Shown: in pieces, positions 4,762 to 17,508 of the stretch
Numbering within the stretch: the first letter of the stretch is position 1
Layout of the letters: each line of letters begins with the position of its first letter
Source: a virus
Taxonomy: Duplodnaviria > Heunggongvirae > Uroviricota > Caudoviricetes
Virus record (IMG/VR): IMGVR_UViG_3300049048_000035
Coordinates: 1-31,855 of that record
DNA: 31,855 nucleotides
Strand: one strand, 5' to 3'
Notes under the pieces: generated by a model
What the model was told of the DNA's origin: nothing
Seen by the model: the letters and a program-made list of their open reading frames with translations, nothing else
Databases searched by the model: none
Program-made: the position numbers and the translations under genes

Positions 4762-4936
4762 TCATGCTCTCCGCATACGAGATAGCCCGAAGGTCTTCCT
4801 CTAAGCTGTCAACCCTATCCAGCAGACAATCAATCTCGTCAGCAGCCTCCTGAAGCAGAGGGATGAGCGTAGACAATGGAAGGCTGTTGGTGCGTAGGCT
4901 CTCTGCGTACTTACGCAGACGTTCTTGTAGAGTCAT
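4748..4936 (-). CDS. Hypothetical protein (helical/coiled)
   Basis: Coupled ORF. Confidence 0.65.
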   Translation of the reverse strand: MTLQERLRKYAESLRTNSLPLSTLIPLLQEAADEIDCLLDRVDSLEEDLRAISYAESMNADG

Positions 4937-5109
4937 TTCTTCTTCGCCTCGAATTCTAGGTTCTGCGCCATATAGCCTAGCTGAAGCAACTTAGCCACGT
5001 ATGCCATAGCTTCATCATCAATGAAGCCATCTAGTGTGATTACCTTGTCTCCGTAAGGAATGTCAATCTTGCTACGGGCAGGGTAGGTGGTGATCTTTAC
5101 TTCTGTCAT
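4933..5109 (-). CDS. Small hypothetical protein (58 aa, MTEVKITTYP...)
   Basis: Translated by hand; ATGA overlaps at both ends fill the gap exactly. Confidence 0.7.
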   Translation of the reverse strand: MTEVKITTYPARSKIDIPYGDKVITLDGFIDDEAMAYVAKLLQLGYMAQNLEFEAKKK

Positions 5110-5324
5110 CCCTTCGGCTCCAACTGTACGTCAATCCCTTGAAATGAGGCAGGATAGCCTTGGTCACGCCAATCCCCGTTGTACCCATTCTTTACTTTGT
5201 AATTGATCGTCTTCACCTTGTACGTAGGGTGAGTCTTCTCAAAGTAGTCGCGGATTAGTACGTCAAGTTGCAGCGGAGCAATATGAGCCGTAATGGCTAC
5301 GTTGACTTTGATTTCTGCTGTCAT
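5106..5324 (-). CDS. Hypothetical protein
   Basis: Coupled ORF with GGAGG RBS. Confidence 0.65.
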   Translation of the reverse strand: MTAEIKVNVAITAHIAPLQLDVLIRDYFEKTHPTYKVKTINYKVKNGYNGDWRDQGYPASFQGIDVQLEPKG

Positions 5325-14324: not shown

Positions 14325-14403
14325 GCGGGTAAACAAGCGCAAGGGACGCGCAGCAGCCTTCCAAGCTGAAGAACGTGGAGTTCGACTCTCCTTGCCCGCT
14401 CCA
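14325..14403 (+). tRNA. tRNA-Gly(TCC)
   Basis: Loop CTTCCAA; U73 and CCA; extended acceptor-to-D linker. Confidence 0.82.
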
Positions 14404-14411
14404 AAATTTAT

Positions 14412-14506
14412 GGATGGTCAACCCGATTGGCGACGGGGCCGGACTTGAAATCCGTGTGAGCCACTAATCCTGGCCTTGGGAGTTCGACTCTACCCACCAT
14501 CCACCA
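14412..14506 (+). tRNA. tRNA-Ser(TGA)
   Basis: Loop CTTGAAA; long variable arm; bulged A in T stem; CCA. Confidence 0.85.
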
Positions 14507-14515
14507 AAAAAGCTA

Positions 14516-14543
14516 TTGACAAGGAGAAAAGTTCGTGTATCAT
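14516..14543 (+). promoter_or_regulatory. sigma70-type promoter
   Basis: TTGACA-16 nt-TATCAT. Confidence 0.55.
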
Positions 14544-14669
14544 AAGCATCTTGAGACAGTGAAGGGCGCTAAGGCTCTTTACGACGAAGCCCACAAGGCA
14601 GCCGCTGCAAAGCGTCTTGCTGAAGTGAAAGTCAAACAGAAGCTGAAGAAGCAACAAAAAGCTTCTTGA
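14535..14669 (+). CDS. Small Lys/Ala-rich protein (44 aa)
   Basis: AAGGAG RBS, GTG start, MYHKHLETVKGAKALYDEAHKAAAAKRLAEVKVKQKLKKQQKAS. Confidence 0.55.
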   Translation: MYHKHLETVKGAKALYDEAHKAAAAKRLAEVKVKQKLKKQQKAS

Positions 14670-14693
14670 CAAACGGGGCCTGACCCGTATAAT
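14666..14693 (+). promoter_or_regulatory. sigma70-type promoter driving tRNA-Ala, the ncRNA array and the TROVE-like gene
   Basis: TTGACA-16 nt-TATAAT. Confidence 0.75.
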
Positions 14694-14790: not shown

Positions 14791-14848
14791 TAGGATGCTT
14801 CCAGCAAACAACTTACCTTTTTATTGGAAAAAGCAAAACAGCATCCTG
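14791..14848 (+). ncRNA. CAGCA-stem ncRNA copy 1 (Y-RNA-like, short form)
   Basis: TAGGATGCT pairs with AGCATCCTG; CAGCAA at position 12; internal CTTTT-TATTGGA-AAAAG hairpin. Confidence 0.7.
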
Positions 14849-14855
14849 CTAATTT

Positions 14856-14977
14856 TGGGATCATTTCAGCAACTAATACGCACAGGAACTGCGATACGTA
14901 GGTTCGACTCCTACCCACTGGCGTAATGCACGGTGGTAGCCAAGCGGTAAGGCAGCAGTAGCAAAAAGTTGATCCCG
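14856..14977 (+). ncRNA. CAGCA-stem ncRNA copy 2 with a circularly permuted tRNA domain
   Basis: TGGGATCA/TGATCCCG stem; order inside is T arm, closed acceptor stem, D arm. Confidence 0.8.
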
Positions 14978-14984
14978 TGAGTTT

Positions 14985-15050
14985 TGGGTTCGTTTCAGCA
15001 AACCTTTAAACATCAAACTTGTAATTTGAAACGTTGAAAACGCGAACCCG
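14985..15050 (+). ncRNA. CAGCA-stem ncRNA copy 3 with a Thr(TGT)-like anticodon arm
   Basis: TGGGTTCGT/GCGAACCCG stem; TCAAA-CTTGTAA-TTTGA. Confidence 0.75.
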
Positions 15051-15057
15051 TTAGTTT

Positions 15058-15189
15058 TAGGATCGTTGCAGCACACAATAATATACTCAGCCTGTTAAGC
15101 TCGTGGGCCGGGTTCGATTCCCGGTGTCTCCGTATCAGGGGAGACATGGTGTAGTGGACAGCACACGTAATGTAGAAAAAGCGATCCTG
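15058..15189 (+). ncRNA. CAGCA-stem ncRNA copy 4 with an Asn-like anticodon hairpin and a permuted tRNA domain
   Basis: TAGGATCGT/GCGATCCTG stem; AGC-CTGTTAA-GCT; T arm, TGTCTCC/GGAGACA acceptor, D arm. Confidence 0.8.
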
Positions 15190-15234: not shown

Positions 15235-16656
15235 ATGAACGCATTTGTTAAGGGTGTTGTGTCGTCGTCTAACAAGACGCGCACTGAGAACGGCATGGCT
15301 TCGTTGAAGTCGTCGTTGAACGCTAACGTTGATCTGTTTTTCGCCATTGGGGCTTCCCGTGGCAAGGATTTGACTACGGCTTTCGACCGTGCATATGCCG
15401 AAGACCCGGATATGGCTATCCGCTGCCTGTTGTGGGCGCGTGATGCTCGTGGTGGTGCTGGTGAGCGTGATATGTTCCGCAACCTGATGCAACACCTTGA
15501 GAACACTGGCCGTCAGCACCTGGTTGAGCGCATCCTGCCGCTGGTTCCTGAACTGGGCCGCTGGGATGACCTGCTGGTGTTCAAGACGGAAGCAGTGAAG
15601 AACAAGGCTATGTCTTTGATCGGTCAGGCTCTGTTCGAGCAAAATCAGCTTGCTGCTAAGTGGATGCCCCGTAAGGGCAAGATCGCTCAGGAGCTTCGCA
15701 CGTTCTTCGGTCTGACTCCGAAGCAGTACCGTAAGGGGCTGGTTGCGCTGTCTAACACTGTTGAACAGCGTATGTGTGCAAAGCAATGGGACTCCATTGA
15801 GTTTGGTAAGCTGCCGTCACTGGCTTCTGCCCGCTACCAGAAGGCTTTCCTGCGCAACGCTGCTGAAAAGTATGCGCTGTACAAGAATGCTCTGGTGAAG
15901 GGTGAAGCGAAGATCAACGCATCCGTGGCATACCCGTATGACGTGACTCGTTCACTGAATTACGGGGACGCAACTGTGGCTGACGCTCAGTGGAAGGCTC
16001 TGCCTAACTACTTGAGCAAGGATGCCAAGCTGCTGCCGATGATCGACGTGTCTAGCTCTATGGGTGTGAAGGTCGGGGACAACCCTAACCTTACTTGCAT
16101 GGAAGTAGCTATCGGTCTTGGTCTGTATGTTGCAACGAAGCAGGAAGGCCCGTTCGCGGGTATGTACCTGACGTTCCACGATCATCCGACACTTGAAGTG
16201 CTGAAGAAGGGCAACCTGAAGACTCAGTACAATCAAGTCAAGTCGTCTGCTTGGGGCGGTTCCACCAACTTTGAGGGTGCGTACATGCGTATCCTGCAAG
16301 TTGCGGTTCAGAACAACGTCAAGCCGGAAGACATGCCAGATTACATGATCGTGTTCAGCGACATGCAGTTCAATTCTGCCCAAGGCTACTACGGCCTAGC
16401 CGGCCGCAACGACACGGCTTTCACGGCTGCCAAGAAGGCTTTTGCCAACGCTGGTTACAAGCTTCCGAAGATCATCTTCTGGAACCTTGCAGCCCGTGCT
16501 GGTCAAACTCCGGTCACGTATGACCAAGATGGAACGGCTCTTGTGTCGGGCTTCAGCCCTTCGCTGATGACCTCCATCCTGTCTGCAAAGACCGTGACGC
16601 CTGAAGGGATTATGCGTGAAACGCTGATGAAGCCGCGCTATAATCTGCCGGCTTAA
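15235..16656 (+). CDS. DUF2828-type TROVE/Ro60-like helical domain plus vWA protein
   Basis: RDARGGAGER, GRWDDL, AAKWMPR, YPYD, QWKAL, MIDVSSSM (MIDAS), WGGSTNF, VFSDMQF, IFWNL, VSGFSPSL; AAGGAG RBS. Confidence 0.8.
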   Translation: MNAFVKGVVSSSNKTRTENGMASLKSSLNANVDLFFAIGASRGKDLTTAFDRAYAEDPDMAIRCLLWARDARGGAGERDMFRNLMQHLENTGRQHLVERILPLVPELGRWDDLLVFKTEAVKNKAMSLIGQALFEQNQLAAKWMPRKGKIAQELRTFFGLTPKQYRKGLVALSNTVEQRMCAKQWDSIEFGKLPSLASARYQKAFLRNAAEKYALYKNALVKGEAKINASVAYPYDVTRSLNYGDATVADAQWKALPNYLSKDAKLLPMIDVSSSMGVKVGDNPNLTCMEVAIGLGLYVATKQEGPFAGMYLTFHDHPTLEVLKKGNLKTQYNQVKSSAWGGSTNFEGAYMRILQVAVQNNVKPEDMPDYMIVFSDMQFNSAQGYYGLAGRNDTAFTAAKKAFANAGYKLPKIIFWNLAARAGQTPVTYDQDGTALVSGFSPSLMTSILSAKTVTPEGIMRETLMKPRYNLPA

Positions 16657-16859: not shown

Positions 16860-16888
16860 TTGACAAAGATAAAGTCAAGCCGGATAAT
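16860..16888 (+). promoter_or_regulatory. Probable sigma70-type promoter
   Basis: TTGACA-17 nt-GATAAT. Confidence 0.55.
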
Positions 16889-16900
16889 CGTAACCGGATT

Positions 16901-16982
16901 CATTGCTCAGCCCTACCTGCACATATCGCGCGAGTGCAAGGTCGGTGGTATGCTAGGTTCGACTCCTAGGGGCTGAGCAATG
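16901..16982 (+). ncRNA. tRNA-like element with acceptor stem and T arm but no D or anticodon arm
   Basis: 13 bp CATTGCTCAGCCC/GGGCTGAGCAATG; CTAGG-TTCGACT-CCTAG. Confidence 0.55.
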
Positions 16983-17160: not shown

Positions 17161-17225
17161 TAGGATGCTTCCAGCAAACTTTATACATTTCAAGCCATTA
17201 TTTTGAAAAAGTAAAAGCATCCTGT
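17161..17225 (+). ncRNA. CAGCA-stem ncRNA copy 5
   Basis: First 18 nt (TAGGATGCTTCCAGCAAA) and 3' AGCATCCTG identical to copy 1; internal TTTCAAG-CCATTAT-TTTGAAA hairpin. Confidence 0.72.
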
Positions 17226-17431: not shown

Positions 17432-17508
17432 TGACCATGAGCAAGCAAGGTGAACGCGCTCCGCTGTTAACGGAGATATGCTGGGTTCGATTCCTAGATG
17501 GTCAGCCA
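17432..17508 (+). tRNA. tRNA-Asn(GTT)
   Basis: CTCCG-CTGTTAA-CGGAG; G73 and CCA. Confidence 0.87.

What the first reader, a model, noticed from the sequence alone, without database searches (positions are those of the whole stretch)
14817..15101. Stand-alone anticodon-arm mimics inside the ncRNAs: possible decoys for anticodon nucleases
Copy 3 holds a perfect 5-bp stem with a 7-nt loop, TCAAA-CTTGTAA-TTTGA (15013-15029); the loop is identical to that of this phage's tRNA-Thr(TGT). Copy 4 holds AGC-CTGTTAA-GCT (15089-15101), with the same loop as the phage tRNA-Asn(GTT). Copies 1 and 5 also have hairpins with 7-nt loops (TATTGGA, CCATTAT), though these lack U33. Established knowledge: host anti-phage nucleases such as PrrC and RloC cut anticodon loops, and Rsr/Y-RNA loci are linked to tRNA damage responses. 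Inference: the RNAs may be decoys, substrates or sensors for tRNA-cleaving defences.
Basis: inference. Interest (0 to 1): 0.75.

Follow-up and report, generated by a model that had tools for sequence, protein, structure and literature searches.

The report
Anticodon-arm mimics on phage Y-like RNAs
Small RNAs beside a phage's Ro60-like protein gene carry hairpins that copy the anticodon loops of threonine and asparagine tRNAs; many related phages keep such hairpins, which may bait host enzymes that cut tRNAs, but that role is untested.

Summary
Copy 3 holds TCAAA-CTTGTAA-TTTGA (15013-15029) and copy 4 holds AGC-CTGTTAA-GCT (15089-15101). [quoted passage not shown] Two such matches never occurred in 5000 shuffles.

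Of 164 unique homologous "handle" RNAs beside DUF2828 genes in IMG/VR phages, 40 carry a hairpin of at least 4 bp with a 7-nt C-U-NNN-A-A loop. Shuffles give 1.2. The Thr-type loop is nearly invariant (one U32 variant) while its stem covaries.

The same arm also occurs inside acceptor-less tRNA bodies mounted on the handle. In copy 4's orthologues it sits at the anticodon-arm position of a permuted tRNA.

The protein models as a Ro60 fold.

The decoy or sensor function remains an inference. Thr(UGU), Lys(UUU) and Asn(GUU) are the published targets of PARIS AriB, and P2 Old prefers Thr(UGU). However, no experiment exists, the hairpins are thermodynamically weak, and the window's stems lack the published cleavage motifs.

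Earlier AI notes of this scan report the same phenomenon in at least 8 other genomes. I found no paper that describes it.

The parts
14666..14693 (+). Consensus sigma-70-type promoter (TTGACA, 16 nt, TATAAT) upstream of tRNA-Ala, the four handle RNAs and the Ro60-like gene
   Evidence: 12 of 12 consensus matches. No terminator-like site on the + strand before the gene end. That these form one transcription unit is inferred.
14791..14848 (+). Handle RNA copy 1 (short). Its interior hairpin at 14817-14833 is not anticodon-like.
   Evidence: Orthologous CUUUU/AAAAG hairpins with variable loops occur in other phages. Weak full-length hit to Rfam RF01414.
14856..14977 (+). Handle RNA copy 2 (long), a circularly permuted tRNA-like module. 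The hairpin CGCA-CAGGAAC-TGCG at 14879-14893 sits 4 nt before the T arm. Its loop has 7 nt but A33.
   Evidence: Weak YrlA hit of 19.3 bits.
14985..15050 (+). Handle RNA copy 3 (short), carrying the stand-alone anticodon-arm mimic
   Evidence: Member of the Thr-type alignment A1.
15013..15029 (+). Anticodon stem-loop mimic of copy 3: 5-bp stem, loop CUUGUAA (Thr UGU). It is extended by an outer 3-bp helix, 15009-15011 with 15033-15035.
   Evidence: Loop identical to tRNA-Thr(TGT). Covariation in 17 sequences: the 5-bp helix is 92.9% paired and 3 of 5 pairs change on both sides; all six anticodon-loop columns that have a letter in every row are invariant, and the first loop position shows one U32 variant (L135). 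For cells paired and for covariation, 0 of 500 shuffles reach the score.
15058..15189 (+). Handle RNA copy 4 (long), a permuted tRNA-like module: T arm 15108-15124, closed acceptor hairpin 15125-15146, D arm 15149-15165
15089..15103 (+). Anticodon-arm mimic of copy 4: 3-bp hairpin with loop CUGUUAA (Asn GUU), then CG (15102-15103). This CG can pair with CG at 15166-15167 after the D arm, giving a composite 5-bp anticodon stem.
   Evidence: Loop identical to tRNA-Asn(GTT). The orthologues L073, L161, L190, L146, L160, L162 and L163 keep a 3-bp hairpin, and all but L160 keep both CG dinucleotides, at the same place. Their stems covary (AGC/GCT, ATC/GAT, TGC/GCA).
15235..16656 (+). Gene for a 473-aa Ro60-like protein (helical repeat plus vWA), the presumed protein partner of the handle
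   Evidence: Pfam DUF7788 at 2e-49 and DUF2828 at 7e-23. phrog_850 'RNA-binding protein'. The AF2 model has pLDDT 86 and matches Ro60 structures at TM 0.62-0.65. Binding to the RNAs is inferred.
17161..17224 (+). Handle RNA copy 5 (short), between tRNA-Glu and tRNA-Phe. Its hairpin at 17188-17208 is not anticodon-like.
   Evidence: A similar hairpin stem, with a longer loop, lies in an RNA of Escherichia phage adrianh.
13252..13327 (+). Phage tRNA-Thr(UGU), anticodon arm ATCCC-CTTGTAA-GGGAT
17432..17508 (+). Phage tRNA-Asn(GUU), anticodon arm CTCCG-CTGTTAA-CGGAG

Best explanation
The five elements are small RNAs built on one conserved 'handle'. The handle is an 8-9 bp closing stem, then UUNCAGCAA just inside the 5' strand, then an A-rich 3' side.

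The handle most likely binds the adjacent Ro60-like DUF2828/vWA protein, as Y RNAs bind Ro60. This is inferred from fold and co-location.

The interior of each RNA is a displayed cargo. In copy 3 the cargo is a stand-alone tRNA anticodon stem-loop with a Thr(UGU) loop. In copy 4 it is a whole rearranged tRNA look-alike whose anticodon arm carries an Asn(GUU) loop. That these are selected anticodon-arm mimics is shown by comparison with other phages; I put that part at about 0.9.

The most likely use, which is inferred, is as bait. The particle would present uncleavable or expendable anticodon arms to host proteins that read anticodon loops. The first candidates are tRNA-cutting defence nucleases of the OLD/PARIS, PrrC or related kinds. 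Binding would titrate them or hold them on the Ro60-like protein, while the phage's own tRNA-Thr and tRNA-Asn, which have altered stems, keep translation going.
For: Shown here:
- The loops are identical to the phage's tRNA loops and are not chance.
- 211 handle RNAs lie on the gene strand against 4 on the opposite strand around DUF2828 genes in 208 loci.
- 40 of 164 unique RNAs carry a hairpin of at least 4 bp with a C-U-NNN-A-A loop, against 1.2 +/- 1.1 (maximum 5) in shuffles. Among short forms it is 30 of 92 against 0.4.
- In the Thr-type alignment the loop is invariant apart from one U32 variant, with covarying stems.
- The same arm and scaffold (TTTGA/TCAAA) occur between a D arm and a T arm in acceptor-less tRNA bodies on the handle.
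- The arm lies at the anticodon-arm position of permuted tRNA modules.
- One scaffold carries anticodons UGU, UUU, UCU and CUU.
- Named phages have such units. Aeromonas phage LAh_8 has a Lys(UUU) and a Met(CAU) arm.
- The protein has a Ro60 fold.

From papers:
- AriB of PARIS cuts tRNA-Lys(UUU), Thr(UGU) and Asn(GUU) at U36AAUC|A41, and phage tRNAs with altered stems rescue infection (PMC12409363).
- P2 Old prefers tRNA-Thr(UGU) (PMC12445682).
- The Ro60-like gp130 of Bas63 counters the Ppl defence (PMC11482910).

Links between the two:
- 13 of the 40 mimics read UAAUCA at positions 36-41, as do E. coli lysT and thrU.
- The phage's own Thr and Asn tRNAs read UAAGGG and UAACGG there.
- No Rnl2-type RNA ligase or RtcB was detected in this genome, which CheckV rates complete. 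This argues against a phage-borne repair role.
Against: - There is no expression, binding or phenotype data for any of these RNAs.
- The window's hairpins are marginally stable.
- Copy 3 reads UAAUUU and copy 4 reads UAAGCU at positions 36-41, not the AriB site.
- Neither stem has the paired CNG motif that P2 Old needs (PMC12445682).
- The AriB model also contacts the D loop (PMC12409363), so a bare arm may bind poorly.
- The handle RNAs found in the stretch examined of E. coli Felix O1-type phage adrianh, a relative of Bas63, show no anticodon arms. The anti-Ppl effect of the Bas63 protein may therefore not need them.
- Almost every anticodon is the target of some known nuclease, so the overlap is weakly specific.
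- Mimic anticodons are not enriched for tRNAs encoded within 3 kb (7 found against 5.1 expected).
- The 20 Thr-type cases are orthologues, so they are not independent.
Confidence: 0.4

Rival explanations
1. Tether for tRNA-handling enzymes. The displayed arm recruits a host or phage protein that normally reads anticodon loops, and brings it to the Ro60-like protein. Candidates are the A37 or wobble-base modification enzymes and threonyl- or asparaginyl-tRNA synthetase. This would parallel Y RNAs tethering PNPase to Ro60.
For: 32 of the 40 mimics have U36-A37-A38 and 7 have A36-A37-A38. By established knowledge these are the contexts of t6A37 and i6A37 modification. YrlA is modified by tRNA enzymes (PMC4201824). 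The phiLo Ro60 and its Y-like RNA assemble with host PNPase (PMC12135203). ThrRS and AsnRS read the anticodon (established knowledge).
Against: No benefit to the phage is evident. The anticodon varies among orthologues of copy 4 (UGA, UGG, UAA, GUU), which fits one fixed enzyme partner poorly. The filter CU-NNN-AA itself favours position 36 being U or A.
Confidence: 0.2
2. Generic U-turn module or evolutionary relic. The RNAs arose from tRNA genes of the island. The arm is kept as a stable folding or docking unit, for example docking on the Ro60-like protein itself, and the anticodon triplet has no meaning.
For: The handle RNAs sit in tRNA islands and include whole tRNA bodies. Copies 1 and 5 and many relatives carry other hairpins. 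The anticodon varies in the orthologues of copy 4.
Against: The full 7-nt CUUGUAA loop is kept in 16 of 17 aligned sequences (one U32 variant) while the stem and the rest of the RNA diverge. A fold-only constraint would not fix all three anticodon bases. The stems are too weak to be stabilising modules.
Confidence: 0.15
3. Cleavable sensor. The arm is a true substrate of a host anticodon nuclease, and its cleavage changes the RNP so as to signal attack on tRNA and switch a phage response.
For: The Salmonella rsr-yrlBA-rtcBA operon responds to damaged tRNAs (PMC7790460). 13 mimics keep the exact AriB site UAAUCA.
Against: The window's own arms lack that site. No downstream effector is evident beside the gene.
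Confidence: 0.1
4. Part of a tRNA quality-control or repair particle. The Ro60-like ring handles damaged tRNAs, and the mimics gate or guide it.
For: This is the role of Ro60 in bacteria and animals, and jumbo-phage ROT/TROVE proteins are discussed with RNA repair (PMC7824862). LAh_8 has an RNA ligase 2 gene about 4 kb away.
Against: This phage has no detectable Rnl2-type ligase or RtcB. The Rnl1 search was uninformative because its control did not ring.
Confidence: 0.1
5. The loop identities are chance matches in AU-rich RNA.
For: The stems are short and weak. Copy 4's hairpin has only 3 bp.
Against: Two matches were never seen in 5000 shuffles. The enrichment in homologues is about 30-fold. 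The stems covary.
Confidence: 0.01

Closest known systems
YrlA/YrlB Y RNAs with Ro60 (Rsr) of bacteria and mycobacteriophages (Rfam RF02553; Chen et al. 2014, PMC4201824)
   Same: Small RNAs encoded on the same strand next to a ring-shaped Ro60-fold protein. A 5'/3' closing stem carries a conserved protein-binding motif. The cargo imitates tRNA (T arm, D arm, closed acceptor stem) in copies 2 and 4.
   Different: The handle motif is UUNCAGCAA, not GNCGAA. The score is 19 bits against a gathering score of 69. The protein is Pfam DUF2828/DUF7788, not TROVE. As I recall it, YrlA has an anticodon stem that runs into the Ro-binding stem without a loop; the passages read show only that it has V and AS arms, and that the single anticodon arm described, in D. 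radiodurans Yrn1, has a 6-nt loop. Here canonical 7-nt anticodon loops are displayed, some on RNAs with no other tRNA part.
Thermus phage phiLo Ro60 with Yrl1/Yrl2 (PMC12135203; PDB 9KOP, 9L5Y)
   Same: A phage-encoded Ro60-fold protein with phage-encoded partner RNAs upstream of the gene. It was proposed to hijack a host enzyme as anti-defence. Its structures are among the best matches to the model.
   Different: Its RNAs use the CGAA motif, and no anticodon-arm mimic is described.
Phage T5 tRNA-Lys(UUU), Thr(UGU) and Asn(GUU) variants that neutralise PARIS (PMC11464382, PMC12409363)
   Same: They concern the same three anticodons. They are phage RNAs in tRNA islands whose anticodon-arm sequence decides the outcome of a nuclease attack.
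   Different: Those are working tRNAs that replace cut host tRNAs. The elements here cannot be aminoacylated (no acceptor end), so they could act only as bait, sensor or tether.
Class I RNAs of dictyostelid amoebae (Rfam RF01414; PMC7919456)
   Same: A short 5'/3' stem starting with G, the motif CCUUACAGCAA next to the 5' strand, a variable interior, a length of about 60 nt and a 3' end CUGU. Copy 1 matches the full model at 26.9 bits. Relatives carry the exact 11-mer.
   Different: The score is below the gathering score of 41.5. The host is different. The known amoebal binder is an RRM protein (Rnp1A). No anticodon arms are reported there. Homology is untested.
thrS operator of E. coli, an mRNA that mimics the tRNA-Thr anticodon arm to bind ThrRS (own knowledge, not checked here)
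   Same: It is a precedent that an isolated anticodon-arm look-alike of tRNA-Thr is enough to capture a tRNA-binding protein.
   Different: It is a cis-acting mRNA leader that regulates translation, not a phage RNP.

Membership tests
YrlA / bacterial Y RNA (RF02553) | Encoded near, and on the same strand as, a Ro60 orthologue | tested here: met
   Four copies lie 46-444 nt upstream of the gene, on the same strand. The protein model matches Ro60 structures at TM 0.62-0.65 and E about 1e-9. By sequence it is DUF2828/DUF7788, not TROVE.
YrlA / bacterial Y RNA (RF02553) | Ro-binding motif GNCGAAN0-1G near the 5' end (PMC4201824) | tested here: not met
   All five copies instead have UU(C/U/G)CAGCA after the 5' stem strand.
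YrlA / bacterial Y RNA (RF02553) | Score at or above the Rfam gathering threshold (69 bits) | tested here: not met
   Copy 2 scores 19.3 bits, E 0.37. The other copies give no hit.
YrlA / bacterial Y RNA (RF02553) | tRNA-like domain with T arm, D arm and closed acceptor-like stem | tested here: met
   Present in copies 2 and 4. Absent from copies 1, 3 and 5.
tRNA anticodon stem-loop (mimicry, not membership) | 7-nt loop with pyrimidine 32, U33, purine 37 | tested here: met
   Copies 3 and 4 read C-U-NNN-A-A. Copies 1, 2 and 5 fail at position 33.
tRNA anticodon stem-loop (mimicry, not membership) | 5-bp stem | tested here: met
   Copy 3 has a perfect 5-bp stem. Copy 4 has 3 bp plus a conserved CG:CG closure by the strand after the D arm. 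That closure is conserved but invariant, so the 2-bp part has no covariation support.
tRNA anticodon stem-loop (mimicry, not membership) | Position relative to D arm, variable loop and T arm | tested here: met
   Copy 4's arm is followed by 4-6 nt and then the T arm. In relatives the same arm lies between a D arm and a T arm.
Functional tRNA | Acceptor stem with a free 3' end; recognised by tRNA finders | tested here: not met
   Neither ARAGORN nor Rfam tRNA calls any of the five. The acceptor is closed by a loop or is absent.
Dictyostelid Class I RNA (RF01414) | Terminal stem, 11-nt motif, about 60 nt, 3' CUGU; score at or above 41.5 bits | tested here: inconclusive
   The layout is shared and copy 1 aligns over the full model, but at 26.9 bits and E 0.013. 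Features taken from PMC7919456.
Decoy or substrate of anticodon nucleases (PARIS AriB, P2 Old, PrrC) | Binding to, cleavage by, or inhibition of the nuclease | not testable with these tools
   Only sequence comparison was possible. The AriB site UAAUCA is present in 13 of 40 relatives and absent in the window. The CNG motif of Old is absent from copy 3's stem.

The most novel reading that the evidence does not exclude
Phage Ro60-like particles are a programmable RNA bait platform. One protein-binding handle displays interchangeable anticodon arms; the UNU series Lys, Thr and Arg occurs on a single scaffold, and Asn, Met, Ser, Tyr and others also occur. The platform would neutralise tRNA-cutting immune nucleases of the OLD/PARIS, PrrC and related kinds. 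That would be a new RNA-based class of anti-defence, complementary to phage tRNA replacement. The shared handle would also give the unexplained Class I RNAs of social amoebae a candidate relative.
Probability: 0.3. Interest if true: 0.9.

Novelty: new variant of a known kind. Interest (0 to 1): 0.78.

Why it matters
tRNA cleavage is now recognised as a common bacterial immune strategy. The known phage answers are replacement tRNAs and RNA repair enzymes. If these RNAs are baits, they would be a third answer, carried by a gene family present in at least 710 sequenced phage genomes.

The idea makes the function of phage Ro60-like proteins directly testable in cultured phages such as Aeromonas phage LAh_8.

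Even without the decoy role, the finding extends tRNA mimicry by Y-type RNAs from the elbow (T and D arms) to the anticodon arm. It also defines an apparently undescribed RNA handle.

Tried and rejected
1. Unconstrained single-sequence folding did not predict copy 3's arm. It was kept only because of the comparative evidence.
2. Is copy 3's arm copied from a host tRNA? I scanned 185,579 species genomes for the exact 17-mer followed by a T loop. The scan gave one hit, which is not a tRNA. The stem is therefore not borrowed; only the loop is tRNA-like.
3. Do mimic anticodons coincide with tRNAs encoded within 3 kb? 7 were found against 5.1 expected, so there is no signal. The flanks are short.
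4. BLASTN of a Thr-type RNA against named phages gave no match because the query is too short.
6. A profile of the protein against PDB sequences found nothing relevant. Only the fold search found Ro60.
7. RNA repair genes in the phage: none for Rnl2-type ligase or RtcB. The Rnl1 search was uninformative.
8. A kissing interaction between the loop UUGUAA and the handle UUACAG was considered. The fourth motif base varies (A, U, C, G) while the loop stays invariant in alignment A1, so I rejected it.
9. The Protein Atlas look-up returned only viral DUF2828 clusters and gave no view of eukaryotic relatives.
10. No paper in the held library describes the handle or anticodon-arm display.

Full report
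**Setting.** The window is the first 31.9 kb of a 95.9-kb IMG/VR phage record that CheckV rates complete. Its GC content is 51%. Its terminase is only about 41% identical to those of 95-99-kb Pseudomonas myoviruses. The host is unknown.

Positions 13.1-18.0 kb form a tRNA island with 20 ARAGORN tRNAs. Inside it lies a 473-aa gene (15235-16656) with Pfam DUF7788 and DUF2828 and PHROG 850 'RNA-binding protein'. An AlphaFold2 model of the protein (pLDDT 86, pTM 0.86) matches Ro60 structures over its whole length: Xenopus Ro at TM 0.62-0.65, Thermus phage phiLo Ro60, and Deinococcus Rsr.

A perfect consensus promoter at 14666-14693 precedes tRNA-Ala, four small RNA elements and this gene. A fifth element lies between tRNA-Glu and tRNA-Phe. 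A whole-genome scan finds only these five, plus one implausible minus-strand hit at 83 kb.

**The elements.** All five share a handle. It consists of an 8-9 bp closing stem (GGAUNNN.../...NNNAUCC), the motif UU(C/U/G)CAGCA just inside the 5' strand, an A-rich 3' side and a YGU tail. Copies 2 and 4 are long and hold circularly permuted tRNA look-alikes: a T arm, an acceptor stem closed by a loop, and a D arm. Copies 1, 3 and 5 are short.

**Observation check.** The quoted hairpins are at the stated coordinates. [quoted passage not shown] In 5000 dinucleotide-preserving shuffles of the five interiors, a hairpin whose 7-nt loop equals any of the phage's 22 anticodon loops appeared in 1.7% of shuffles. 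Two such hairpins never appeared.

The hairpins are thermodynamically weak, at -0.7 and -0.6 kcal/mol. Free folding of copy 3 prefers to pair the handle motif. The sequence of this phage alone would therefore not be convincing.

**Comparative survey.** I fetched 208 IMG/VR loci around DUF2828 homologues of 41-100% identity to one of the three query proteins. A strict handle scanner found 211 elements on the gene strand and 4 on the opposite strand, giving 164 unique sequences.
- 40 of the 164 have a hairpin of at least 4 bp with a 7-nt C-U-NNN-A-A loop. Shuffles give 1.2 +/- 1.1, with a maximum of 5.
- Among the 92 short forms the figures are 30 against 0.4.
- Loops of 7 nt are over-represented as such, 128 RNAs against 80.
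- The anticodon triplets are UGU (20), UCU (4), UGA (3), UUU (3), CUU (2) and eight singletons. Position 36 is U in 32 cases.

The 20 Thr-type cases are orthologues of copy 3. In an alignment of 17 of them the loop is invariant apart from one U32 variant, while the stem changes: TTTGA/TCAAA, TTCAA/TTGAA, TAGA/TCTA, TCGA/TCGA, and the flipped TCAAA/TTTGA of the window. The 5-bp helix is 92.9% paired and 3 of 5 pairs change on both sides. No shuffle of 500 reaches the observed covariation, and slid controls fall to 21-44% paired. An outer 3-bp helix also covaries.

**Why these are anticodon arms and not just hairpins.**
1. In several relatives (for example L208:4450-4543, L176:702-801, L202:1050-1149, L125:888-1002) the handle replaces the acceptor stem of an otherwise ordinary tRNA body. 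A D arm, then the same AU-rich arm with a C-U-NNN-A-A loop, then a variable loop and a T arm follow in the normal order. ARAGORN calls none of these four a tRNA.
2. In copy 4 and its orthologues (L073, L161, L190, L146, L160, L162, L163) a 3-bp hairpin with a 7-nt loop is followed by CG, 4-6 nt and the T arm. The D arm is followed by CG. Together these make a composite 5-bp anticodon stem at the right place in the permuted fold. The 3-bp part covaries (AGC/GCT, ATC/GAT, TGC/GCA). The loops read N-U-NNN-A-N with varying triplets. The permuted fold is therefore opened in the 5' strand of the anticodon stem, and the loop stays intact.
3. One scaffold carries several anticodons that differ by single bases.

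**Named phages.** tblastn finds the protein in 710 phage records: Felix O1-type, T4-type, mycobacteriophages annotated 'Ro-like RNA binding protein', Listeria, Staphylococcus, Campylobacter and others.
- Aeromonas phage LAh_8 has at least eight handle RNAs upstream of the gene. They include a Lys(UUU) arm on the TTTGA/TCAAA scaffold and a Met(CAU) arm.
- Escherichia phage adrianh has four handle RNAs among its tRNAs but no anticodon arm.
- Cronobacter phage S13 has handle RNAs just downstream of the gene, one overlapping elements annotated as oversized tRNAs.

**Function.** Nothing here tests function. The bait reading rests on three published facts.
- PARIS AriB depletes tRNA-Lys(UUU), Thr(UGU) and Asn(GUU), cutting at U36AAUC|A41. 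Phage tRNAs with changed stems rescue infection (PMC12409363).
- P2 Old preferentially severs the anticodon stem of tRNA-Thr(UGU) (PMC12445682).
- The Ro60-like gp130 of Bas63 counters the Ppl system (PMC11482910).

The window displays Thr(UGU) and Asn(GUU) loops, and relatives display Lys(UUU). Thirteen mimics read UAAUCA at positions 36-41, as do E. coli thrU and lysT. The phage's own Thr and Asn tRNAs differ there.

Against the bait reading:
- The window's arms lack both published cleavage motifs.
- The AriB model also contacts the D loop.
- The Felix O1-type RNAs lack arms.
- Nearly every anticodon is some nuclease's target.
- The mimic anticodons are not enriched for neighbouring tRNAs.

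A phage-borne repair role is unlikely here because no Rnl2-type ligase or RtcB is detectable.

**Comparison with known systems.** The closest is Ro60 with YrlA-type Y RNAs. The elements work like Y RNAs in layout and in tRNA mimicry, but they fail membership. They lack the GNCGAA motif, score 19 bits against 69 required, and accompany a different protein family by sequence. The passages of Chen et al. that I read describe only a 6-nt-loop anticodon arm in D. radiodurans Yrn1; that YrlA itself has no anticodon loop is my recollection. I found no paper describing this handle or anticodon-arm display.

Earlier AI notes of this scan report the same phenomenon in at least 8 other genomes. I reached the points above independently, before reading those notes, and they agree.

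**Verdict.** Anticodon-arm mimicry is well supported (about 0.9). The bait or decoy role is the leading but untested mechanism (about 0.4).

Noticed in passing
window 14793-14848; loci L004-L047, just downstream of the DUF2828 gene (e.g. L017:4566-4619): Copy 1 aligns over the whole Rfam model of Dictyostelium Class I RNA (26.9 bits, E 0.013). Many relatives carry the exact amoebal 11-mer CCUUACAGCAA after the 5' stem, and end in C-UG(U/G) like the amoebal CUGU. This is a possible link between an unexplained amoebal RNA class and Ro60-like phage RNPs.
   Followed up: partly
window 14328-14397 and 14412-14502: Two likely tRNAs missed by ARAGORN. One is Gly(UCC)-like, at 22.6 bits on the tRNA model. 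The other is a long-arm tRNA with a UGA anticodon loop (Ser) that scores 44.6 bits on the tRNA-Sec model.
   Followed up: no
window 16890-16982: After a near-consensus promoter (16860-16888) lies a tRNA-like piece with a long acceptor-type stem and a T arm, but no D or anticodon arm and no handle.
   Followed up: no
L043:767-1486, L045:999-1338, L060:1625-2280, L070:4660-4733: Relatives with large handle-RNA arrays also encode a tmRNA (called permuted by ARAGORN) and a tRNA with anticodon CUA (amber suppressor type) within 1-2 kb of the Ro60-like gene.
   Followed up: no
L043:2523-2686, L045:2253-2416, L053:2302-2448: A handle RNA of about 150 nt with a conserved cargo that is not tRNA-like (shared block GGGCUUCUCCGAAUAGAAGAAGAG). 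It points to further cargo classes beyond tRNA parts.
   Followed up: no
L211:4872-5114 (Cronobacter phage S13): Two features annotated as oversized tRNAs (121 and 113 nt, 'tRNA-Ser' and 'tRNA-OTHER'). A 119-nt handle RNA carrying a permuted tRNA-like module (4923-5041) overlaps both, and a second handle RNA lies just beyond them at 5130-5264. The annotation looks wrong.
   Followed up: partly
window 14535-14669: A 44-codon ORF with its own near-consensus promoter (14516-14543) sits between tRNAs just upstream of the array promoter. Its function is unknown.
   Followed up: no
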